Source of the DNA: a virus
Length of the DNA: 5,423 nt
IMG/VR virus record: IMGVR_UViG_3300045988_113695
Location: 1-5,423 of that record
Strand: one strand, 5' to 3'
The translations under genes and the position numbers were made by a program. This document shows positions 1 to 5,423 of the stretch, piece after piece; within the stretch, counting starts at the first letter, position 1; every line of letters starts with the position of its first letter. The notes under the pieces are model-generated. The model was not told the DNA's origin. It worked only from the letters and a program-made list of their open reading frames with translations, and made no database searches.

Positions 1-55
1 GGCATTCCTACTGTCAAGGTATATCTCCGTCTTTGAGAAGAAGATCTAAATTTGA
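1..55. repeat. Terminal redundancy. Bases 1-55 are identical to 5369-5423, a circularisation overlap of a circular genome of about 5368 nt.
   Basis: There is an exact 55-nt match between the two window ends. The reading frame of the capsid gene is preserved across the junction. Confidence 0.9.
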
Positions 56-449
56 CTATTATTGGCCTGAGTTTGCTAATCTTGGTGAGCAACCTGTTTA
101 CAAATCTCAGTTGTTTTTTAATGGTAATGGTATTCCCGGTTCAACTGGTGATTCTGTATTTGGTTTTCAAGAATATGCTGCTGAGTATAGAGAATTCAAT
201 AATGAGGTTCATGGCCATATGCGTCCGGATGTTTCTCAATCCATAGCTATGTATAATTTCTGCGATTCTTATGCTTCTGCTCCTGTTCTTAATAGTGATT
301 TTATGAAAGAGAGTCCTAAGAATCTTGATAGATCCTTGGCTGTTGTTTCTTCTAAAGCTTCTCAATGTATTGCTGATTTCTATTTTAAAGGTTCGATTGC
401 TCGTGAGATGCCTGCATTCTCCATACCTTCTAAATTAGGTGGATTCTAG
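1..449 (+). CDS. VP1: Major capsid protein VP1 (F-like), C-terminal part. It runs in frame (frame 3) from the window start to TAG at 447-449 and is the continuation of the ORF that leaves the window at 5423, because 5369-5423 equals 1-55. The track's start at 33 is an internal TTG, not a real start.
   Basis: Frame 3 has no stop from base 3 to 449. Translating across the junction (...LRYRHSYCQGISPSLRRRSKFDYYWPEF...) is seamless. The product is long with T-biased third positions like the other genes, and it continues an ORF with an unmistakable Microviridae capsid N-terminus. Confidence 0.88.
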   Translation, partial: HSYCQGISPSLRRRSKFDYYWPEFANLGEQPVYKSQLFFNGNGIPGSTGDSVFGFQEYAAEYREFNNEVHGHMRPDVSQSIAMYNFCDSYASAPVLNSDFMKESPKNLDRSLAVVSSKASQCIADFYFKGSIAREMPAFSIPSKLGGF

Positions 450-1279: not shown

Positions 1280-2437
1280 ATGAGTTGCTATCATCCATTA
1301 CATTGTTTTTATACAGGTCTTAAGACTAAAAAAAATAAAGATTTGGTTATTATTCAAAGTGGTGATTGTTTGGCTGTGCCTATTACTATTTTGTTGCGAG
1401 ATAAATACAAGGAACAAATGACTTCTGATGAACTTAAAGATTTGAAAATTGGTTATGATTATCTTGCTTTTAAGTATTCTAATTTTAAAGGCAAAAACCT
1501 TGTTTGTGAAGGAATGTTTACAAAGTTTAAAGAAATTCCTTGTGGAAAGTGTATTGGCTGTAAATTGGATTATTCTCGTACCTGGGCTATTAGATGCATG
1601 AATGAATTTGATAGTGTTGGGAAGGTTGGATTGTTTTTAACTTTGACTTATAGTAATGATAAAGTTAATGTTAGAGAATTTGATGTTTCTCATAAGGTTA
1701 TTGAAGCTTTCCCACCATTGAACATTAATTCCCACAATGGCAAAGCTGTTTATTCGGTTTTGATAAAAGAGGATTTACAGAAGTTTCAAAAGAGATTGAG
1801 AAAATATCTTGATGATTATTTTCCTGATGAAAAACATCATATTTCATATTTTTGCTGCGGTGAGTATGGTGGATCTACTTTTAGATCACATTTTCATGGT
1901 TGCTATTTTGGATTAGATAGAAAATATTTTCCTGATTTGAAAGTATTTAAGAATCATGGTACTACTTATTGGAAAAGTGCAATTTTAGATCGTATATGGA
2001 ATAAAGGTAATGTTATTGTTGGTGATATATCTTTTGAGTCTTGTGCCTATGTTGCAAGGTATGTTTTGAAAAAGAAAATGAATGATGCTATTGCTTGTCC
2101 TGCAAGTGAGAAATATCCAGAATTTGTATTGATGTCGAGGAGACCTGCAATAGGCCTTCGCTACCTTCTCGACAATCAAGCAGTTTTAACAGATACTGGT
2201 AAATTGGCCGTCCGCCGTAAGTCGTATTCTGTATCCGTTTCTTTGCCTTTGTTTTACAAACGTAAGTTAGGTGATCAGCTTGATTATCTTGATAGGTTTA
2301 AGCCAGACCCTTTTAAATCTTCGAACAATTTCGATTTAGCACAATTAAAAAATATAAATCGTATTTGTGAGAACGATTTAAAGGAAGAAATTAAAACTTA
2401 TCAAATTAAAGTGCTGAAACTTAGGAATAAAGTATGA
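1280..2437 (+). CDS. VP4: Replication initiation protein VP4 (A-like rolling-circle Rep, HUH endonuclease). Preferred start is ATG 1280 (MSCYHPL...). The open frame extends upstream to ATG 1208 and 1256, but 1208 lies inside a hairpin.
   Basis: RCR motif 1 FLTLTY is at 1634-1651, motif 2 HFH (RSHFHGCYF) at 1889-1897, and motif 3 YVARYVLKK with two Tyr at 2048-2074. There is an N-terminal PCGKCIGC Cys cluster. GAAAGG sits 9 nt before ATG 1280, and the N-terminus M-x-C-x-x-P resembles other gokushovirus Reps. Stop is TGA at 2435-2437. Confidence 0.9.
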   Translation: MSCYHPLHCFYTGLKTKKNKDLVIIQSGDCLAVPITILLRDKYKEQMTSDELKDLKIGYDYLAFKYSNFKGKNLVCEGMFTKFKEIPCGKCIGCKLDYSRTWAIRCMNEFDSVGKVGLFLTLTYSNDKVNVREFDVSHKVIEAFPPLNINSHNGKAVYSVLIKEDLQKFQKRLRKYLDDYFPDEKHHISYFCCGEYGGSTFRSHFHGCYFGLDRKYFPDLKVFKNHGTTYWKSAILDRIWNKGNVIVGDISFESCAYVARYVLKKKMNDAIACPASEKYPEFVLMSRRPAIGLRYLLDNQAVLTDTGKLAVRRKSYSVSVSLPLFYKRKLGDQLDYLDRFKPDPFKSSNNFDLAQLKNINRICENDLKEEIKTYQIKVLKLRNKV

Positions 2438-2505
2438 AAAATTATTATTATGTAATAATATTGAATTTGCTTGTGATTTTATGTAATGTAATTTTAATTT
2501 TGGTA

Positions 2506-2534
2506 TTGCTTTTTAAATGACACTATGATATAAT
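2506..2534 (+). promoter_or_regulatory. Sigma70-like promoter. The -35 is TTGCTT (2506-2511), followed by a 17-nt spacer and an extended -10 TGaTATAAT (2526-2534). It sits in the 122-nt AT-rich intergenic region upstream of the accessory ORF at 2560.
   Basis: It has a consensus -10 hexamer with a TG extension and a canonical 17-bp spacer to a TTG-containing -35. It lies in the only long non-coding stretch of the genome. Confidence 0.4.
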
Positions 2535-2559: not shown

Positions 2560-2928
2560 ATGAGGTATAAAGAATTTAGAGATGTTATGTTGTCGAAAGG
2601 ATATTCTGTTGTTGATGTTATGGATTGTATTCGTGATTTTTTACGAAGTGATGCTTGCTCTTCTTGGGTTTTGTTATCATTCAATCAGCATGTTGCTTTG
2701 TTTTGCGATCATATTATGGATCATTGCGAGAGAAAAAAAAGGCATTATGATCTTGATGATGCTTTTAACAAATTGATGGATATGTATAATGTTGAACACA
2801 GTTGGTTTGGTGATCGTCCTCTTGATGATGTATTTGATGATCTTTGTTATGATCTTTGGGAAGATTTTTGCCATTTGGATTCCCACCAGTTTGACGATTA
2901 TTGGCAAGATTTATTAAAGGATTGTTAA
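2560..2928 (+). CDS. Hypothetical protein, 122 aa, strongly acidic (about 24 Asp), Cys/His-rich with a CDHIMDHC cluster and a Trp-rich C-terminus. It has no recognisable family and sits in the accessory region.
   Basis: ATG 2560 is preceded by AAGAGG (2544-2549). The frame is open to TAA at 2926-2928. Codon usage (T-ending) matches the core genes. It is the first ORF after the long AT-rich non-coding region with a promoter-like element. Confidence 0.6.
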   Translation: MRYKEFRDVMLSKGYSVVDVMDCIRDFLRSDACSSWVLLSFNQHVALFCDHIMDHCERKKRHYDLDDAFNKLMDMYNVEHSWFGDRPLDDVFDDLCYDLWEDFCHLDSHQFDDYWQDLLKDC

Positions 2929-2952
2929 TATGCTTCAAGGTTGCATTAATGG

Positions 2953-2980
2953 AACTATCAGATCTCCTACTCTGATAGTT
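2953..2980 (+). other. Hairpin with a 10-bp perfect stem AACTATCAGA / TCTGATAGTT and an 8-nt loop, between the acidic ORF and the TM ORF. It abuts the AAAGGA RBS of the TM gene.
   Basis: The inverted repeat is 2953-2962 against 2971-2980. There is no trailing T-run. Confidence 0.4.
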
Positions 2981-2993
2981 AGAAAGGATTCAT

Positions 2994-3251
2994 ATGAATC
3001 AAGAAATGATTGTATCTGTTTCAAGTGCTGCGGCAAGTCTCTTCGTTGCGTTCTGCTCATTCCTTATTAGTTTCCTGAAGACTAAACAAGCTAATAAAGA
3101 AACTGAAGCTGCTAAGTTGAGATATGCTGAAGCTGTATTGAATGGTTGTTATTTGATTTGTCCGGATTGTGGTAGAAAGATTGATTTAAAGGATATTCAC
3201 TGGTATCAACAGTCTTCTACTTCTGATTTAATGAAAGGAACTACTAAATGA
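2994..3251 (+). CDS. Small membrane protein, 85 aa. It has one N-terminal TM helix (IVSVSSAAASLFVAFCSFLISFL) followed by KTK, then a charged C-terminal tail with a C-x4-C-P-x-C cluster. Candidate lysis or exclusion protein.
   Basis: ATG 2994 has AAAGGA 6-7 nt upstream. A hydrophobic 23-aa segment is followed by basic residues (positive-inside rule). Its stop TGA 3249-3251 overlaps the ATG of the next ORF. Confidence 0.55.
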   Translation: MNQEMIVSVSSAAASLFVAFCSFLISFLKTKQANKETEAAKLRYAEAVLNGCYLICPDCGRKIDLKDIHWYQQSSTSDLMKGTTK

Positions 3252-3361
3252 GAAAAAGAGAAAATTCCCATGCTCGACATGCTATATTTAGCACAACTGC
3301 TAGACGTACAAAGGCTGTTAATTTGCCTAGAATGAATTCAAGAGGTGGAATCAGATTATGA
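3248..3361 (+). CDS. Arg/Lys-rich mini-protein of 37 aa (MRKRENSHARHAIFSTTARRTKAVNLPRMNSRGGIRL). Candidate J/ORF8-like ssDNA-binding packaging protein. It is below the ORF-track size cut-off.
   Basis: The ATG at 3248 overlaps the upstream stop (ATGA), and AAAGGA (3232-3237) lies 10 nt upstream. There are about 10 Arg/Lys plus 3 His in 37 aa. Its stop TGA 3359-3361 overlaps the next ATG at 3358. Gokushoviruses (Chlamydia phage ORF8, phiMH2K ORF8) encode a similarly small basic protein. Confidence 0.5.
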   Translation: MRKRENSHARHAIFSTTARRTKAVNLPRMNSRGGIRL

Positions 3362-3606
3362 CTAAAATTGTATTTGAAGTTTTCGATAAAGTTTCTAAAC
3401 TTTATAGTGATCCTGTTGTAGTTGTGAACTTTGATGTTTATGCTAGAAATCTTTTAGATGCTGATTTTATTAGAAATCATTTAGATGATTTTGTTGTTTA
3501 TGAAGTCGGTTCTTTTGATGATGCTCTTGGAACTATTAAGATTTATCCTGAGCCTATTATTCATGAGTTAGGAACTTTGCAACATGGAACAAAAGAAAGT
3601 AAGTAA
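3358..3606 (+). CDS. VP5: VP5-like small non-structural protein, 82 aa. By position it would be the C-like DNA-synthesis/packaging factor, immediately upstream of VP3.
   Basis: ATG 3358 has AGAGGTGG 9 nt upstream. The size and position (between the Rep/accessory block and VP3) match VP5 in the usual gokushovirus order. I recognise no sequence motif, so the assignment is positional. Confidence 0.45.
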   Translation: MTKIVFEVFDKVSKLYSDPVVVVNFDVYARNLLDADFIRNHLDDFVVYEVGSFDDALGTIKIYPEPIIHELGTLQHGTKESK

Positions 3607-4105
3607 AGAAGAAATTGTTTCTATTCCTTCTGTCAATGTTTATCCATTTACTTTTAGAGCTTACAAAGATGAACCTTTGGATTTGTCTCGTACCAAAGAA
3701 TCTGTTTGGATTGAAAATGAAGATGGTCAGATTGTCCAAAATGGTTTTGAGGATGTGGATCTAAAAATTCAGAAAGCTGCTGAAGGTGTTTCTTTGATTG
3801 ATGTTTTGAGAAGGGATCAATTAGCTGATCAGAATTCTATTGCTCCTGTTAATGATGCTCAATTTGGTGATGTTTCAAAAGTTGAACATGATTTGGTTTT
3901 AGCTGATAAGCAAGCTAGATCTGCGATAGATTCTTTTAATAATCTTCCTGAGGCATTTCGTGCAATGTTTGACAATGATTATCGTAAATTTGCTCAATCG
4001 TTTAGTGAAGATTTGTTGAAAAAGTATATTGGTAGTGTTTATAAGCTTGATGATAAGAAAGTTGATAATAAGAAACTTGATGATAATCAGGAGGATAAAA
4101 AATAA
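3584..4105 (+). CDS. VP3: Internal scaffolding protein VP3, 173 aa.
   Basis: The protein is acidic, with an LPEAFRAMFDNDYRKFAQSF segment resembling the conserved C-terminal region of gokushovirus VP3, and a Lys/Asp-rich tail. Its stop TAA 4103-4105 overlaps the VP1 ATG (TAATG). It overlaps the 3' end of the upstream ORF by 23 nt in another frame. Confidence 0.72.
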   Translation: MEQKKVSKEEIVSIPSVNVYPFTFRAYKDEPLDLSRTKESVWIENEDGQIVQNGFEDVDLKIQKAAEGVSLIDVLRRDQLADQNSIAPVNDAQFGDVSKVEHDLVLADKQARSAIDSFNNLPEAFRAMFDNDYRKFAQSFSEDLLKKYIGSVYKLDDKKVDNKKLDDNQEDKK

Positions 4106-5423
4106 TGCCTAATTTGCAACATACATTTGATATAGCTCCTACTAATGTTAATCGAAAGAGATCTATATTTAGTTTAAATCACACAAATAAGCTTGATTTC
4201 AATGCCGGTGATTTGATTCCTATTGATACAATTGAGATTTTGCCCGGTGATACTGTTTCAATGGACATCTCTGCTGTTATTCGTTTATCAACTCCACTCG
4301 TACCTGTTATGGATGATGCTTTTGTTGATGTTTTTGCATTTTTTGTTCCCAATCGTATTATTTGGAAACATTGGGAAGAGTTTTGCGGTGAAAATAAATC
4401 TTCTTATTGGGCTCAAACAACTGATTGGTTGTTGCCTACATTGATTGTAGGTGATTCTTATGTTGCTGTCGGTTCTGCTGGTGATTTCCTTGGTTATGGT
4501 GCAGCTGCCTCTGGTCAGTATCAAGGTAATTTAGCTGCTTACGGTAATGTTCTTGCTGCTGGTGCTTATGTTCAAATTTGGAATGATTGGTTTCGTGATC
4601 AAAATACTCAAGCTCCTCAGAATACTTTCTATGAATTGGCTAATGGTGCTGAAATTGATTGTTCTTCTGGTGATATTCATGCTGATATTCTTCAACCTAA
4701 TTCTTTCCAGATTTCTTTAGGTCTTTTGCCAGTCAATAAGATTCATGATTATTTTACTTCGTGTTTGCCAGCTCCTCAAAAAGGCAATGCTGTAAGTTTG
4801 CCTCTTGGTCAGTTAGCTCCTGTTGTTTTTACTGATGATACGACAAAGTTTAATGCTAATGCTGGTATTCCTAGATTTAACACTAATGGTTTGGGTGATG
4901 AAGCTAATGGTTATGATCTGCATGCTTTCAATTCTTTGATTCAGCAAAATCATAAATTGGTTGGAACTGATCGAAATGTTACTGTTTCTAGTGGTGGAAA
5001 GGATTTGTCTATTGTTAATGCTTATGCTGATTTGTCTTCAGCATCTGCTGCAACTATAAATCAATTGAGACAAGCATTTGCTACACAGTATTTCCTTGAG
5101 AATGATGCTCGTTTTGGTACTCGTTATGTCGAGGTTCTATTAGGGCATTTTGGAGTAAATGCTGGCGATTATCGGCTTCAACGTCCAGAATATCTTGGTG
5201 GTTCACGTATTCCTGTATCCACTACTCAAGTCTCTAATAATACTGCTTCTTCTGGTACACCTCTTGGCACTCTTGCTGGTTTTACATATGGTCAACAGTC
5301 TGGTTCTTTGTTTACTAAGTCTTTTACTGAACATGGTCAATTATTGATTCTTGCTGCTTTGCGTTATAGGCATTCCTACTGTCAAGGTATATCTCCGTCT
5401 TTGAGAAGAAGATCTAAATTTGA
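4105..5423 (+). CDS. VP1: Major capsid protein VP1 (F-like), N-terminal about 440 aa. The frame is open to the window end, and in the circular genome it continues at base 1 and ends at 449. The total is about 570 aa.
   Basis: ATG 4105 has AGGAGG (4089-4094) 10 nt upstream. The N-terminus MPNLQHTFDIAPTNVNRKRSIFSLNHTNKLDFNAGDLIPIDTIEILPGDTVSMDISAVIRLSTPLVPVMDDAFVDVFAFFVPNRIIW matches the conserved Microviridae capsid pattern (phiX F shows a similar pattern: ...PVIAGDSFEMD...RLSPL...VDIFTFYVPHR...). There is no stop in frame 1 from 4105 to 5423. Confidence 0.9.
   Translation, partial: MPNLQHTFDIAPTNVNRKRSIFSLNHTNKLDFNAGDLIPIDTIEILPGDTVSMDISAVIRLSTPLVPVMDDAFVDVFAFFVPNRIIWKHWEEFCGENKSSYWAQTTDWLLPTLIVGDSYVAVGSAGDFLGYGAAASGQYQGNLAAYGNVLAAGAYVQIWNDWFRDQNTQAPQNTFYELANGAEIDCSSGDIHADILQPNSFQISLGLLPVNKIHDYFTSCLPAPQKGNAVSLPLGQLAPVVFTDDTTKFNANAGIPRFNTNGLGDEANGYDLHAFNSLIQQNHKLVGTDRNVTVSSGGKDLSIVNAYADLSSASAATINQLRQAFATQYFLENDARFGTRYVEVLLGHFGVNAGDYRLQRPEYLGGSRIPVSTTQVSNNTASSGTPLGTLAGFTYGQQSGSLFTKSFTEHGQLLILAALRYRHSYCQGISPSLRRRSKF
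5369..5423. repeat. Second copy of the 55-nt terminal redundancy.
   Basis: Identical to 1-55. Confidence 0.9.

What the first reader, a model, noticed from the sequence alone, without database searches (positions are those of the whole stretch)
2994..3251. Single-TM 85-aa protein: candidate single-gene lysis or exclusion factor in a subfamily without a known lysis gene
The N-terminal 23-residue hydrophobic helix followed by KTK and a charged tail has the same architecture as phiX174 E, which has an N-terminal TM and inhibits MraY. Gokushoviruses generally lack an identified lysis gene. This ORF has a good RBS and is translationally coupled to the downstream basic mini-ORF. The C-terminal C-x4-C-P-x-C plus His residues could form a small metal-binding knuckle, which known amurins do not have.
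Basis: inference. Interest (0 to 1): 0.6.

Follow-up and report, generated by a model that had tools for sequence, protein, structure and literature searches.

The report
Conserved membrane protein, candidate lysis gene
The 85-codon ORF is a real, conserved gene for a small membrane-anchored protein with half of a metal-binding site; it belongs to an unnamed family shared by gut gokushoviruses and tiny phi29-like phages, and it is the best candidate for their missing lysis gene, although its function is untested.

Summary
Window 2994-3251 (+) encodes an 85-aa protein with an AAGGA ribosome-binding site, a 23-residue hydrophobic helix (residues 6-28) and a K-rich flank. The helix alone is not significant, because this T-rich strand has 22 hydrophobic ORFs. 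Conservation is what matters: the ORF is kept in 8/8 relatives, dN/dS is 0.06-0.18, and 156 clusters (50% identity) match the family profile. Gokushovirus members sit between Rep and VP5. Podovirus members sit in ~12-kb phi29-like dsDNA genomes (profile-profile E = 1e-15). It is the only conserved membrane-protein gene in the window. It is also the only called one in a 12.5-kb podovirus genome that has no recognizable endolysin. Charge distribution predicts N-out/C-in in 281/284 members. Only Y-x-I-C-P-x-C-G-x-K-I-x-L is conserved family-wide. C52 and H69 are not, and most members have just two Cys, so any metal site must bridge chains, as in the matching Mrp/NBP35 motif. There is no similarity to phiX174 E and the gene is not overprinted. 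Best reading (about 0.4): a metal-clasped, oligomerising lysis effector. Rivals are an E-type amurin, a p16.7-like membrane organiser, or an exclusion factor. Function was not tested.

The parts
2994..3251 (+). Coding sequence of the 85-aa bitopic membrane protein (stop codon TGA at 3249-3251).
   Evidence: ORF list. 21 close homolog clusters. dN/dS 0.06-0.18. Family of 156 clusters at 50% identity.
2983..2988 (+). Shine-Dalgarno-like AAAGGA, 5 nt upstream of the ATG.
   Evidence: Sequence read directly. The GGA core is invariant in 7 relatives.
3009..3077 (+). Codons 6-28, the transmembrane helix IVSVSSAAASLFVAFCSFLISFL. It carries a conserved stripe of small residues at positions 11/12, 15, 18/19, 22 and 26.
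   Evidence: KD 2.04. Modelled as helix. Small-residue frequency 0.65-0.95 at those positions in 151 non-redundant members. Within the clade, pN is 0.029 for codons 1-26 against 0.12 for codons 27-70, at pS about 0.5.
3078..3098 (+). Codons 29-35, the basic juxtamembrane flank KTKQANK, which sets the N-out/C-in topology.
   Evidence: The post-TM flank has mean net charge +1.9 against -1.1 for the N-terminus. The C-flank is more positive in 281/284 members.
3099..3146 (+). Codons 36-51, a charged amphipathic helix with a hydrophobic stripe at positions 37, 40, 44 and 47. Its length varies across the family.
   Evidence: AF2 helix 3-50. Column statistics. The distance from TM end to first Cys ranges from 18 to 42 residues.
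3147..3197 (+). Codons 52-68, a beta-hairpin knuckle C-Y-L-I-C56-P-D-C59-G-R-K-I-D-L-K-D-I. The CPxCG turn is encoded at 3159-3173. This is the family signature.
   Evidence: Highest information content, 2.43 bits. AF2 strands 53-55 and 62-64. Sub-threshold zinc-ribbon matches. Mrp/NBP35 motif matches.
3198..3248 (+). Codons 69-85, a poorly conserved polar tail predicted to be disordered.
   Evidence: pLDDT < 50 for residues 74-85. Information content 1.27 bits. Variable in length.
2953..2980 (+). Conserved hairpin (AACTATCAGA / loop TCTCCTAC / TCTGATAGTT) immediately upstream of the ribosome-binding site. It may be a regulatory element for the gene.
   Evidence: DNA fold -7.8 kcal/mol, z = -2.9. 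95% of cells paired, with 2 pairs showing changes on both sides, in 7 sequences.
2930..3070 (+). Upstream ORF of 46 aa. It starts 1 nt after the ORF122 stop, reads through the hairpin and overlaps target codons 1-26 in another frame. It may be a regulatory uORF and is probably not a protein-coding gene.
   Evidence: Found in 8 of the 11 relatives scanned, at 46-51 aa. In L010 an ATG at the same spot is visible in the alignment, but that reading frame was not translated. Target dS is not depressed in the overlap, pS 0.51 against 0.54.
3248..3361 (+). Downstream 37-aa basic ORF ending in GGIRL, in the position of the gokushovirus VP8 / phiX174 J DNA-binding protein (analogy as in the PMC9431446 table). 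It is coupled to the target by ATGA in this genome.
   Evidence: dN/dS 0.03-0.14. The same ORF follows the homolog in distant gokushoviruses. The coupling is absent in clade 2.

Best explanation
Window 2994-3251 is a genuine phage gene. Its product is a small single-pass membrane protein. About five residues, including a conserved acidic one, face outside the cell. One transmembrane helix follows, and roughly 57 residues lie in the cytoplasm.

The cytoplasmic part is an amphipathic helix that ends in a beta-hairpin carrying a single C-P-x-C-G knuckle. One chain supplies only two cysteines, so I infer the following model. Two or more chains pack side by side, through the small-residue stripe in the membrane helix and the hydrophobic stripe in the cytoplasmic helix. 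Their knuckles then jointly hold one metal ion or iron-sulfur cluster, as a clasp.

I commit to the function being host lysis. The protein would accumulate in the membrane late in infection and oligomerise into a membrane lesion, like a holin or the MS2 L protein. The lesion would collapse membrane integrity and lead to wall failure through host autolytic activity, or through an unrecognised phage muralytic enzyme in the podoviruses. The clasp would set or gate oligomerisation.

Shown: the gene is real, the family exists, and the architecture, charge distribution, two-Cys limit, synteny and sole-membrane-protein status are as described. Inferred: the topology, the oligomer, metal binding and the lysis function.
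For: Real gene:
- dN/dS is 0.06-0.18, equal to core genes.
- The ORF is intact in 8/8 relatives, unlike 20 other hydrophobic ORFs.

Family:
- 62 and then 98 clusters by word-indexed search.
- 156 clusters at 50% identity by exhaustive search, nearly all 60-116 aa.
- No match reaching a curated cut-off or carrying a function in Pfam, PHROGs or PADLOC. The precomputed Pfam column is '-' for every homolog.

Synteny:
- Gokushovirus members lie after Rep and before the basic ORF, VP5, VP3 and VP1.

Cross-realm sharing:
- Members occur in phi29-like podoviruses.
- A gokushovirus-only profile against a podovirus-only profile gives 98.6% probability, E = 1e-15, over 75 columns.

Sole membrane protein:
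- It is the only conserved one in the window.
- It is the only called one among 19 genes of the 12.5-kb podovirus L035, which has no recognizable endolysin or holin.

Topology and oligomer:
- Charge bias in 281/284 members.
- Small-residue and hydrophobic stripes.
- TM pN of 0.029 at pS about 0.5.

Half-site:
- Exactly 2 Cys in 62% of members and no His in 49%.
- The best unbiased PDB hits are Mrp/NBP35 proteins over sYfvCPnCG. Their CXXC binds a [4Fe-4S] cluster bridging two monomers (PMC6345978).

Need for a lysis gene:
- None is identified for gokushoviruses in the literature searched (PMC3394797, PMC9431446, PMC9239249).
Against: - No experiment supports the function, and no family member occurs in a cultured phage or with a known host.
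- No endolysin lies next to the gene in any context. No member convincingly matches a holin profile: 1 of 18 members at E = 0.008.
- A strongly conserved cytoplasmic metal knuckle is not a known holin or Sgl feature. Sgl proteins are usually lineage-specific and often overprinted, whereas this family is broad and has its own frame.
- The gene is accessory. Two of the three capsid relatives sampled have no TM ORF in the Rep-VP5 interval, and only about 7 of 2,767 deposited microviruses have a detectable homolog.
- A holin without an endolysin does not by itself explain wall breakage.
- The AF2 model has only moderate confidence (mean pLDDT 64), and no multimer could be modelled.
- Being the only TM protein fits other membrane-associated roles equally well.
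Confidence: 0.4

Rival explanations
1. E-type amurin. The transmembrane helix, perhaps with the knuckle, binds and inhibits a specific host membrane enzyme of peptidoglycan precursor supply (MraY, MurJ, MurG or similar). Growing cells then burst at the septum, with no pore and no endolysin needed.
For: - It has the same N-out/C-in single-pass layout as phiX174 E (E topology from my own knowledge of the MraY-E-SlyD complex).
- The exact TM sequence is almost invariant within the clade, despite near-saturated synonymous change: pN 0.029 against 0.12. That fits a specific helix-helix partner.
- It would explain lysis without an endolysin in both the gokushoviruses and the tiny podoviruses, where none is recognizable.
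Against: - No sequence similarity to E or to any Sgl in Pfam or PDB.
- The gene is not overprinted, and the window's TM has no proline.
- The TM sequence is not conserved across the family, whereas the cytoplasmic knuckle is. In E the TM domain is the functional part (own knowledge).
- A family this broad is atypical for Sgls, which arise de novo repeatedly (PMC7693330).
Confidence: 0.17
2. Membrane organiser of replication or packaging. The protein would be a functional analogue of phi29 p16.7 (N-terminal membrane anchor, coiled coil, C-terminal binding domain). It would tether Rep, the ssDNA product or the procapsid to the membrane through the knuckle.
For: - The architecture is the same as p16.7 (own knowledge of p16.7).
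- In gokushoviruses the gene directly follows or overlaps the end of Rep.
- In podovirus L019/L035 it sits at the border between the replication and morphogenesis modules.
- Both virus groups replicate through ssDNA intermediates, and zinc knuckles often bind nucleic acid (own knowledge).
Against: - p16.7 C-terminal domain structures, which I recall are in the PDB, are not among the PDB hits even at E <= 10.
- Beyond the juxtamembrane lysines, the cytoplasmic part is near neutral, with an often acidic tail. That is poor for DNA binding.
- In podoviruses L024/L025 the gene is embedded among collar and tail-spike genes.
- It is absent from most gokushoviruses, which replicate without it.
Confidence: 0.17
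3. Superinfection exclusion or host-takeover factor. It would be a small membrane protein that blocks entry of competing phages, or interferes with a host membrane process such as division. It would be dispensable for the basic lytic cycle.
For: - It is an accessory gene with a patchy distribution.
- It is shared horizontally between unrelated phage types.
- Small bitopic phage proteins with such roles exist, for example SPO1 Gp56 (own knowledge).
Against: - Only about five residues are predicted outside the membrane, which leaves little to meet an incoming phage.
- A 5.4-kb genome has little room for luxury genes.
- Purifying selection is as strong as on core genes.
- PADLOC gives only zinc-finger noise.
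Confidence: 0.1
4. Chance ORF. It would be a hydrophobic reading frame produced by the T-rich strand in a non-coding spacer, and not a gene.
For: The strand carries 22 hydrophobic ORFs of at least 25 aa, most of them clearly spurious.
Against: - dN/dS is 0.06-0.18, with pS up to 0.8.
- The ORF is intact in 8/8 relatives.
- Homologs at 20-40% identity keep the same architecture and position.
- It has a conserved ribosome-binding site.
Confidence: 0.01

Closest known systems
phiX174 protein E (Bullavirinae lysis protein, an MraY inhibitor; Pfam Microvir_lysis)
   Same: A small protein of a microvirus with an N-terminal single transmembrane helix, predicted N-out/C-in, and a basic region after the helix. 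It would provide lysis without an endolysin.
   Different: - No sequence similarity.
- It has its own reading frame between genes, not overprinted in a scaffold gene.
- The window's TM has no proline.
- The family-wide conserved element is the cytoplasmic CPxCG knuckle, whereas E's C-terminal part is replaceable (own knowledge).
- The family extends to dsDNA podoviruses.
Holins of tailed phages (small single- or multi-TMD proteins with charged C-termini, such as phi29 gp14 and the holins embedded in the structural modules of small podoviruses)
   Same: - Size, one TM helix and a charged cytoplasmic C-terminus.
- Helix-packing small-residue stripe.
- Sits among structural genes in two podoviruses (L024, L025).
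- Only called membrane protein in L035, the one podovirus genome seen almost entire.
   Different: - No adjacent endolysin.
- No convincing holin profile match.
- A conserved metal knuckle is not a described holin feature.
- Gokushoviruses have no endolysin for a holin to release.
Mrp/NBP35/ApbC iron-sulfur carrier ATPases, CXXC dimer-bridging motif
   Same: - Near-identical local motif (s-Y-f/i-v-C-P-n-C-G-x-K) preceded by a hydrophobic stretch. These proteins are the best unbiased PDB hits, and hhalign gives 94.9% over 36 columns.
- Two Cys per chain.
- In Mrp/NBP35 these two Cys from each monomer hold a bridging [4Fe-4S] cluster (PMC6345978).
   Different: - No P-loop ATPase domain, and the protein is only 85 aa.
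- The similarity covers about 36 residues and may be convergent.
- Metal or cluster binding by the phage protein is untested.
phi29 p16.7 (membrane organiser of phage DNA replication)
   Same: An N-terminal membrane anchor, then a coiled-coil helix, then a small C-terminal cytoplasmic domain that dimerises. It is encoded by a phi29-type phage (own knowledge).
   Different: - No sequence match.
- The C-terminal domain here is a roughly 17-residue knuckle hairpin, not a 70-residue DNA-binding domain.
- The cytoplasmic part is not strongly basic.
Zinc ribbon / rubredoxin-type knuckles, and intermolecular zinc clasps (Rad50 zinc hook, CD4-Lck zinc clasp)
   Same: - A CPxCG knuckle at a beta-hairpin turn, with sub-threshold matches to many Zn-ribbon Pfam families.
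- The two-Cys-per-chain logic of the Rad50 hook and the CD4-Lck clasp (own knowledge).
   Different: - A zinc ribbon has two knuckles in one chain. Here the second is absent in most members.
- No homology to Rad50 or CD4/Lck is claimed. They are mechanistic precedents only.

Membership tests
phiX174 E / Microvir_lysis | Detectable sequence or profile similarity to protein E | tested here: not met
   There is no Pfam hit for the window protein at E <= 1 other than Zn-ribbon noise. The E family is not among the 25 most-matched Pfam families for 47 members. The PDB profile search at E <= 10 lists no E chain.
phiX174 E / Microvir_lysis | Gene overprinted inside the scaffolding gene in another frame | tested here: not met
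   The ORF lies between ORF122 and the basic ORF in its own frame. Synonymous sites vary freely, with pS 0.3-0.8.
phiX174 E / Microvir_lysis | N-terminal single TM helix, N-out/C-in | tested here: met
   KD 2.04. The charge bias predicts C-in for 281/284 members. This is a prediction only, not an experiment.
phiX174 E / Microvir_lysis | Functionally essential proline in the TM helix (Pro21; own knowledge) | tested here: not met
   Window residues 6-28 contain no Pro. Only a minority of family members have Pro at alignment positions 7 or 11.
phiX174 E / Microvir_lysis | Inhibition of MraY and dependence on SlyD | not testable with these tools
   This needs genetics or biochemistry in a host.
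Holins | Small protein with at least one TM helix and a charged hydrophilic C-terminus | tested here: met
Holins | Encoded next to, or in a cassette with, an endolysin | tested here: not met
   No muralytic enzyme is recognizable in the window. None is recognizable beside the gene in podoviruses L024, L025 and L035. Many neighbours have no annotation at all, so this is a weak negative.
Holins | Match to a described holin family profile | tested here: not met
   The only holin match is phrog_608, for 1 of 18 members at E = 0.008. There is none among the 23 PHROG families matched by A3, and none among the 25 most-matched Pfam families.
Holins | Timed hole formation that collapses the membrane potential | not testable with these tools
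   This needs expression and membrane-potential assays.
Zinc ribbon (Cys4, two knuckles) | CPxCG-type knuckle at a beta-hairpin | tested here: met
   C56 and C59 are invariant, P57 is 95% and G60 is 72% in 151 non-redundant members. AF2 places strands at 53-55 and 62-64. Sub-threshold Zn_ribbon matches occur in up to 30/47 members.
Zinc ribbon (Cys4, two knuckles) | A second Cys/His pair in the same chain completing a four-ligand site | tested here: not met
   Exactly two Cys in 177/284 members and no His in 140/284. C52 and H69 of the window are not conserved.
Mrp/NBP35/ApbC | CXXC motif in the context s-Y-f-x-C-P-x-C-G | tested here: met
   PDB hits 2ph1 and 3kb1 at E = 1e-3 and 3e-3. A Tissierellaceae Mrp protein carries QNMSYIVCPNCGEKI. 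hhalign gives 94.9%, though that target was pre-selected by motif.
Mrp/NBP35/ApbC | P-loop ATPase domain with deviant Walker A (GKGGhGK[ST]; PMC6345978) | tested here: not met
   The protein is 85 aa, with no such motif and no ATPase domain.
Mrp/NBP35/ApbC | Binds a [4Fe-4S] cluster bridging two monomers | not testable with these tools
   This needs anaerobic purification or reconstitution and spectroscopy.
phi29 p16.7 | Sequence similarity to p16.7 or its C-terminal DNA-binding domain | tested here: not met
   The family profile against all PDB sequences at E <= 10 lists no p16.7 chain. That p16.7 structures are in the PDB is from my own knowledge.

The most novel reading that the evidence does not exclude
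A single lysis protein family, dimerised by a cytoplasmic metal or iron-sulfur clasp that senses the redox or metal state of the dying cell, is shared by horizontal transfer between ssDNA gokushoviruses and minimal phi29-like dsDNA podoviruses. That would make it the first lysis gene known for gokushoviruses. It would also be the first holin- or Sgl-type protein with a metal-gated trigger, and indirect evidence that some gut gokushoviruses infect the same (probably Bacillota) hosts as phi29-like phages.
Probability: 0.12. Interest if true: 0.85.

Novelty: new variant of a known kind. Interest (0 to 1): 0.6.

Why it matters
- **An open question becomes testable.** How gokushoviruses, among the most abundant ssDNA phages in animal guts, release their progeny is unknown. 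The literature searched offers only occasional peptidase genes (PMC3394797, PMC9239249). This work gives a concrete, conserved, unannotated candidate that can be cloned and tested directly. It comes with precise predictions for topology, dimerisation and the C56/C59 metal site.
- **It questions the view of microviruses as genetically isolated.** The family crosses from ssDNA microviruses to dsDNA phi29-like podoviruses. Microviruses have been described as genetically isolated from the wider pangenome (PMC9239249).
- **It hints at shared hosts.**
- **Single-gene lysis proteins have practical value.** They are of interest as 'protein antibiotics' that reveal weak points in the cell envelope (PMC10229422).
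- **It would improve annotation.** The gene is currently missed in most deposited genomes that carry it.

Tried and rejected
1. Homology to phiX174 E, holins, p16.7 or any named family. Pfam, PHROGs, NCBIfam, PADLOC and PDB sequence searches gave only zinc-ribbon-type noise.
2. Fold search of the AF2 model against BFVD. Nothing reached E <= 1e-3, and the model is too simple and low-confidence to be informative.
3. Host or prophage search in 185,579 bacterial and archaeal genomes. The only confirmed hit was the host's own Mrp/ApbC ATPase, not a prophage copy, so it gave no host clue.
4. Cultured phages with known hosts. None carries the family.
5. Endolysin adjacency in podovirus contexts. None is recognizable.
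6. Rival lysis candidates inside the window:
   - The embedded hydrophobic ORF 52-246 is open in 7/8 relatives, but VP1 dS is not depressed there, so I rejected it.
   - The 28-aa ORF 2434-2520 is not conserved, 0/8.
7. The upstream ORF 2930-3070 as a second overlapping gene. Target dS in the overlap is not depressed, so its overlapping part is not coding-constrained.
8. A self-contained Cys3-His metal site. I rejected it because C52 and H69 are not conserved.
9. The search for related loci with the full family alignment failed for lack of a conserved 7-10-column block. A subfamily alignment worked.
10. Universality at this genome position. I rejected it because two of three capsid relatives have no TM ORF there.
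Full report
**Context**

The window is a complete gokushovirus-type genome, with every gene on the + strand:

| Coordinates | Gene | Evidence |
|---|---|---|
| 4105 to the end, wrapping to 449 | VP1 major capsid | Pfam Phage_F |
| 452-1111 | VP2 pilot protein | PHROGs |
| 1208-2437 | VP4 replication initiator | Pfam REP_ORF2-G2P |
| 2560-2928 | Acidic 122-aa ORF | no family |
| 2994-3251 | The finding | |
| 3248-3361 | 37-aa basic ORF | |
| 3358-3606 | VP5 | Pfam Phage_ORF5 |
| 3584-4105 | VP3 scaffold | Pfam Chlamy_scaf |

The first and last 55 nt of the window are identical, which is an assembler overlap. The true circle is therefore 5,368 nt and VP1 is intact at 570 aa. The capsid protein is at most 43% identical to any of 2,767 deposited microvirus capsids, so the lineage has no close deposited relative.

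**Checking the observation**

The ORF, its length and its coordinates are correct. AAAGGA lies 5 nt before the ATG. Residues 6-28 (IVSVSSAAASLFVAFCSFLISFL) contain no charged residue and reach a Kyte-Doolittle 19-residue mean of 2.04. KTK follows the helix. The stop codon overlaps the next ATG as ATGA.

A hydrophobic ORF is not remarkable on this strand. There are 22 + strand ORFs of at least 25 aa with a TM-grade segment, almost all of them alternative frames of real genes. Conservation is what separates this ORF from the rest:

- It is the only such ORF kept full-length in 8 of 8 related genomes.
- Its dN/dS against six relatives is 0.06-0.18. Rep is 0.06-0.12, VP3 0.07-0.24 and VP5 0.09-0.33.

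**The family**

- A single-sequence search found 21 clusters at 62-98% identity, all on contigs of 5.6 kb or less.
- tblastn against deposited phages found weak, mostly unannotated matches in seven pig and monkey faecal microviruses.
- Seven fetched loci were examined, and each match is a 77-88-aa ORF with the same layout. In six of the seven, the ORF sits immediately upstream of a basic ORF ending in (P)RGGIRL and of VP5.
- A profile search raised the family to 62 clusters.
- An exhaustive HMM search of 1.84 billion representatives gave 156 clusters at 50% identity with E <= 1e-3 (43 with E <= 1e-10). Nearly all are 60-116 aa.
- No Pfam, PHROG, PADLOC or source name attaches to any member.

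**Architecture, from 284 retrieved members**

- 276 have a TM-grade helix.
- The short N-terminus has mean net charge -1.1, and position 4 is acidic in 70% of 151 non-redundant members. The 12 residues after the helix average +1.9.
- The C-side flank is more positive in 281 of 284 members. By the positive-inside rule this predicts N-out/C-in.
- The helix-to-cysteine distance varies from 18 to 42 residues.
- In 151 non-redundant members, the most conserved block is [YF]-[VI]-[IV]-C-P-x-C-[GK]-x-K-[IVL]-x-L, at 2.43 bits per column. The TM helix scores 1.67 and the linker helix and tail about 1.3.
- The TM helix carries a stripe of small residues at window positions 11/12, 15, 18/19, 22 and 26. 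These are 65-95% G/A/S/T/C, and A19 is 95% small.
- The cytoplasmic helix has a hydrophobic stripe at positions 37, 40, 44 and 47. Both stripes have the 3-4 spacing typical of helix-helix packing.
- AlphaFold2 with the family alignment gives one helix over residues 3-50, strands at 53-55 and 62-64 flanking the CPDC turn, and a disordered tail. Mean pLDDT is 64.

**The metal site is a half-site**

Across the family, 62% of members have exactly two Cys and 49% have no His. A four-ligand site within one chain is therefore impossible for most members.

The best unbiased PDB hits of the family profile are two Mrp/NBP35-type proteins (2ph1 at E = 1e-3, 3kb1 at E = 3e-3), aligned exactly over sYfvCPnCG. 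The only confirmed hit in 185,579 prokaryotic genomes was likewise a Tissierellaceae Mrp/ApbC protein with QNMSYIVCPNCGEKI. hhalign gives 94.9% over 36 columns, but that target was pre-selected by motif. In Mrp/NBP35 proteins this CXXC binds a [4Fe-4S] cluster that bridges two monomers (PMC6345978).

I treat this as a mechanistic precedent and possibly convergence, not as membership. There is no ATPase domain.

**The family crosses virus realms**

- Member P0112 (71 aa, E = 4e-9 to the gokushovirus-seeded profile) lies in a 12.5-kb phage that has a protein-primed family-B DNA polymerase, a Phi29-type capsid protein, a phi29 gp9-like tail protein and a packaging ATPase.
- Members P0250 and P0268 lie in 12.8-14.5-kb phages with a Phi29-type capsid, between collar and tail-spike genes.
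- A gokushovirus-only profile against a podovirus-only profile gives 98.6% probability and E = 1e-15 over 75 of about 90 columns. The window's own clade against the podovirus profile gives 95.9% and E = 5e-9.
- No contig carrying a member exceeds 14.5 kb. The family therefore appears confined to very small phage genomes.
- This contrasts with the reported genetic isolation of microviruses (PMC9239249).

**Evidence bearing on function**

*For a lysis role*

- The protein is the only conserved membrane protein of the window. The embedded ORF 52-246 is open in 7/8 relatives, but VP1 synonymous divergence is not reduced there: dS is 0.75-1.38 inside against 0.67-0.70 outside.
- It is the only one of 19 called genes in podovirus L035 with a TM segment, and that genome has no recognizable endolysin or holin.
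- It has the size, single TM helix, charged cytoplasmic C-terminus and packing stripe typical of holins.
- The literature searched names no lysis gene for gokushoviruses. Peptidases are suggested for some (PMC3394797, PMC9239249), and a published table lists the Chp1 equivalent of the lysis protein (gpE) as Unknown (PMC9431446).

*Against a lysis role, or neutral*

- No endolysin is adjacent anywhere.
- No holin profile matches.
- A conserved cytoplasmic knuckle is not a described holin or Sgl feature.
- The gene is accessory. Of three capsid relatives sampled, two have no TM ORF in the Rep-VP5 interval. The third (Peromfec virus RodF8_36) has a non-homologous 104-aa ORF with the same front half but no CPxC.

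*On the phiX174 E analogy*

- The topology is the same.
- There is no sequence similarity, no overprinting and no TM proline.
- Family-wide conservation is concentrated in the cytoplasmic knuckle rather than in the TM helix.
- Within the window's clade, however, the TM segment is almost invariant. Codons 1-26 have pN 0.029, against 0.12 for codons 27-70, at pS about 0.5. That is more than a passive anchor needs and keeps a specific helix-helix partner, self or host, in play.

**Most likely mechanism**

*Shown:* a real, selected gene; a bitopic architecture; a charge bias; a two-Cys limit; packing stripes; and sole-membrane-protein status.

*Inferred:* N-out/C-in topology; parallel self-association through both helices; a metal or cluster shared between knuckles of different chains; and late accumulation leading to a membrane lesion and lysis.

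My probabilities are:

| Reading | Probability |
|---|---|
| Holin-like, metal-clasped lysis effector | about 0.4 |
| E-type amurin | 0.17 |
| p16.7-like membrane organiser | 0.17 |
| Exclusion or host-takeover factor | 0.1 |
| Chance ORF | 0.01 |
| Something not considered | the remainder |

**Regulatory surroundings**

A 10-bp hairpin (2953-2980) lies directly upstream of the ribosome-binding site. It folds better than shuffles (z = -2.9), and relatives show compensatory changes: ACTATCAGA/TCTGATAGT becomes ACCATTAGA/TCTAATGGT. 95% of cells are paired, although there are only 7 sequences.

The same stretch is read by a 46-aa upstream ORF (2930-3070). It starts 1 nt after the ORF122 stop and overlaps target codons 1-26. 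It was found in 8 of 11 relatives scanned. The target's synonymous sites are not constrained in the overlap, so it is at most a regulatory uORF. Tight translational control would suit a toxic membrane protein, but this is speculation.

The ATGA coupling to the basic ORF is not conserved. Clade-2 genomes have about 380 nt without a conserved ORF in between.

**Verdict**

The E analogy is topological only, and the proposed self-contained metal knuckle is wrong in detail. What is new:

- an unnamed, widespread family;
- its half-site knuckle, with a dimer-bridging precedent;
- its presence in both ssDNA gokushoviruses and minimal phi29-like dsDNA phages.

Noticed in passing
window 1-55 and 5369-5423: The two ends are an identical 55-nt direct repeat, an assembler k-mer overlap. 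The genome is therefore a 5,368-nt circle, and VP1 (4105 to the end, plus 56-449) is intact at 570 aa.
   Followed up: yes
window 2953-2980: A conserved 10-bp hairpin lies just upstream of the target's ribosome-binding site, and relatives show compensatory base changes. It could be a translational or transcriptional control element, or an ssDNA structural signal.
   Followed up: partly
window 2930-3070: A 46-aa upstream ORF (MLQGCINGTIRSPTLIVRKDS...) starts 1 nt after the ORF122 stop, reads through the hairpin and overlaps the target's first 26 codons. It was found in 8 of 11 relatives scanned, but the overlap shows no extra synonymous constraint.
   Followed up: partly
window 2560-2928: This 122-aa ORF is very acidic and rich in Cys, His and Trp, and matches no family. 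Its position after Rep is conserved, but it evolves fast (dN/dS 0.18-0.86, and 29-76% identity among relatives whose Rep is 80-93% identical).
   Followed up: no
window 3248-3361: This 37-aa basic ORF ends in GGIRL and is strongly conserved (dN/dS 0.03-0.14). It is present after the homolog in distant gokushoviruses, yet it is absent from the annotation of most deposited records examined. It is probably the VP8/J-like DNA-binding protein.
   Followed up: partly
L010 3295-3673 (also L018 3292-3669): Clade-2 relatives carry an insert of about 380 nt, with no conserved ORF, between the target homolog and the basic ORF. Its nature (non-coding element, origin or decayed gene) was not examined.
   Followed up: no
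L032 (OM869640.1, Peromfec virus RodF8_36) 3790-4104 and 3445-3576: A capsid relative lacks the family. At the same position it has a non-homologous 104-aa ORF with an acidic N-terminus, a small-residue-rich TM helix and a K-rich flank, plus a 43-aa extremely hydrophobic ORF. Two other relatives (KT264794.1, PP511412.1) have no TM ORF there.
   Followed up: partly
window 52-246: A 64-aa two-TM ORF is embedded in the 3' end of VP1 and stays open in 7 of 8 relatives. VP1 synonymous divergence is not reduced across it, so it is probably a by-product of the T-rich frame and not an E-like overprinted gene.
   Followed up: yes
window 2434-2520: A 28-aa extremely hydrophobic ORF (KD 3.2) overlaps the Rep stop codon. 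It is not conserved in any of 8 relatives.
   Followed up: yes
L025 10705-11718: A 337-aa protein of a tiny phi29-like podovirus carries a Hint/intein-like module (Pfam Hint, E = 1e-6, just below the curated cut-off), which is unusual in a genome of about 14 kb.
   Followed up: no
L035 (whole 12,523-nt contig), L024, L025: These phi29-like podoviruses of about 12-14.5 kb have no recognizable endolysin or holin by Pfam, PHROGs, NCBIfam or PDB sequence search. In L035 the family member is the only TM protein called. How these phages lyse is as open a question as it is for the gokushoviruses.
   Followed up: partly
L026 23-961 (Tissierellaceae MAG, JALNZV010000011.1): The host Mrp/ApbC Fe-S carrier ATPase shares a stretch of about 36 residues (helix plus SYIVCPNCGEKI) with the phage family. 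Whether this reflects capture of a host fragment or convergence is unknown.
   Followed up: partly
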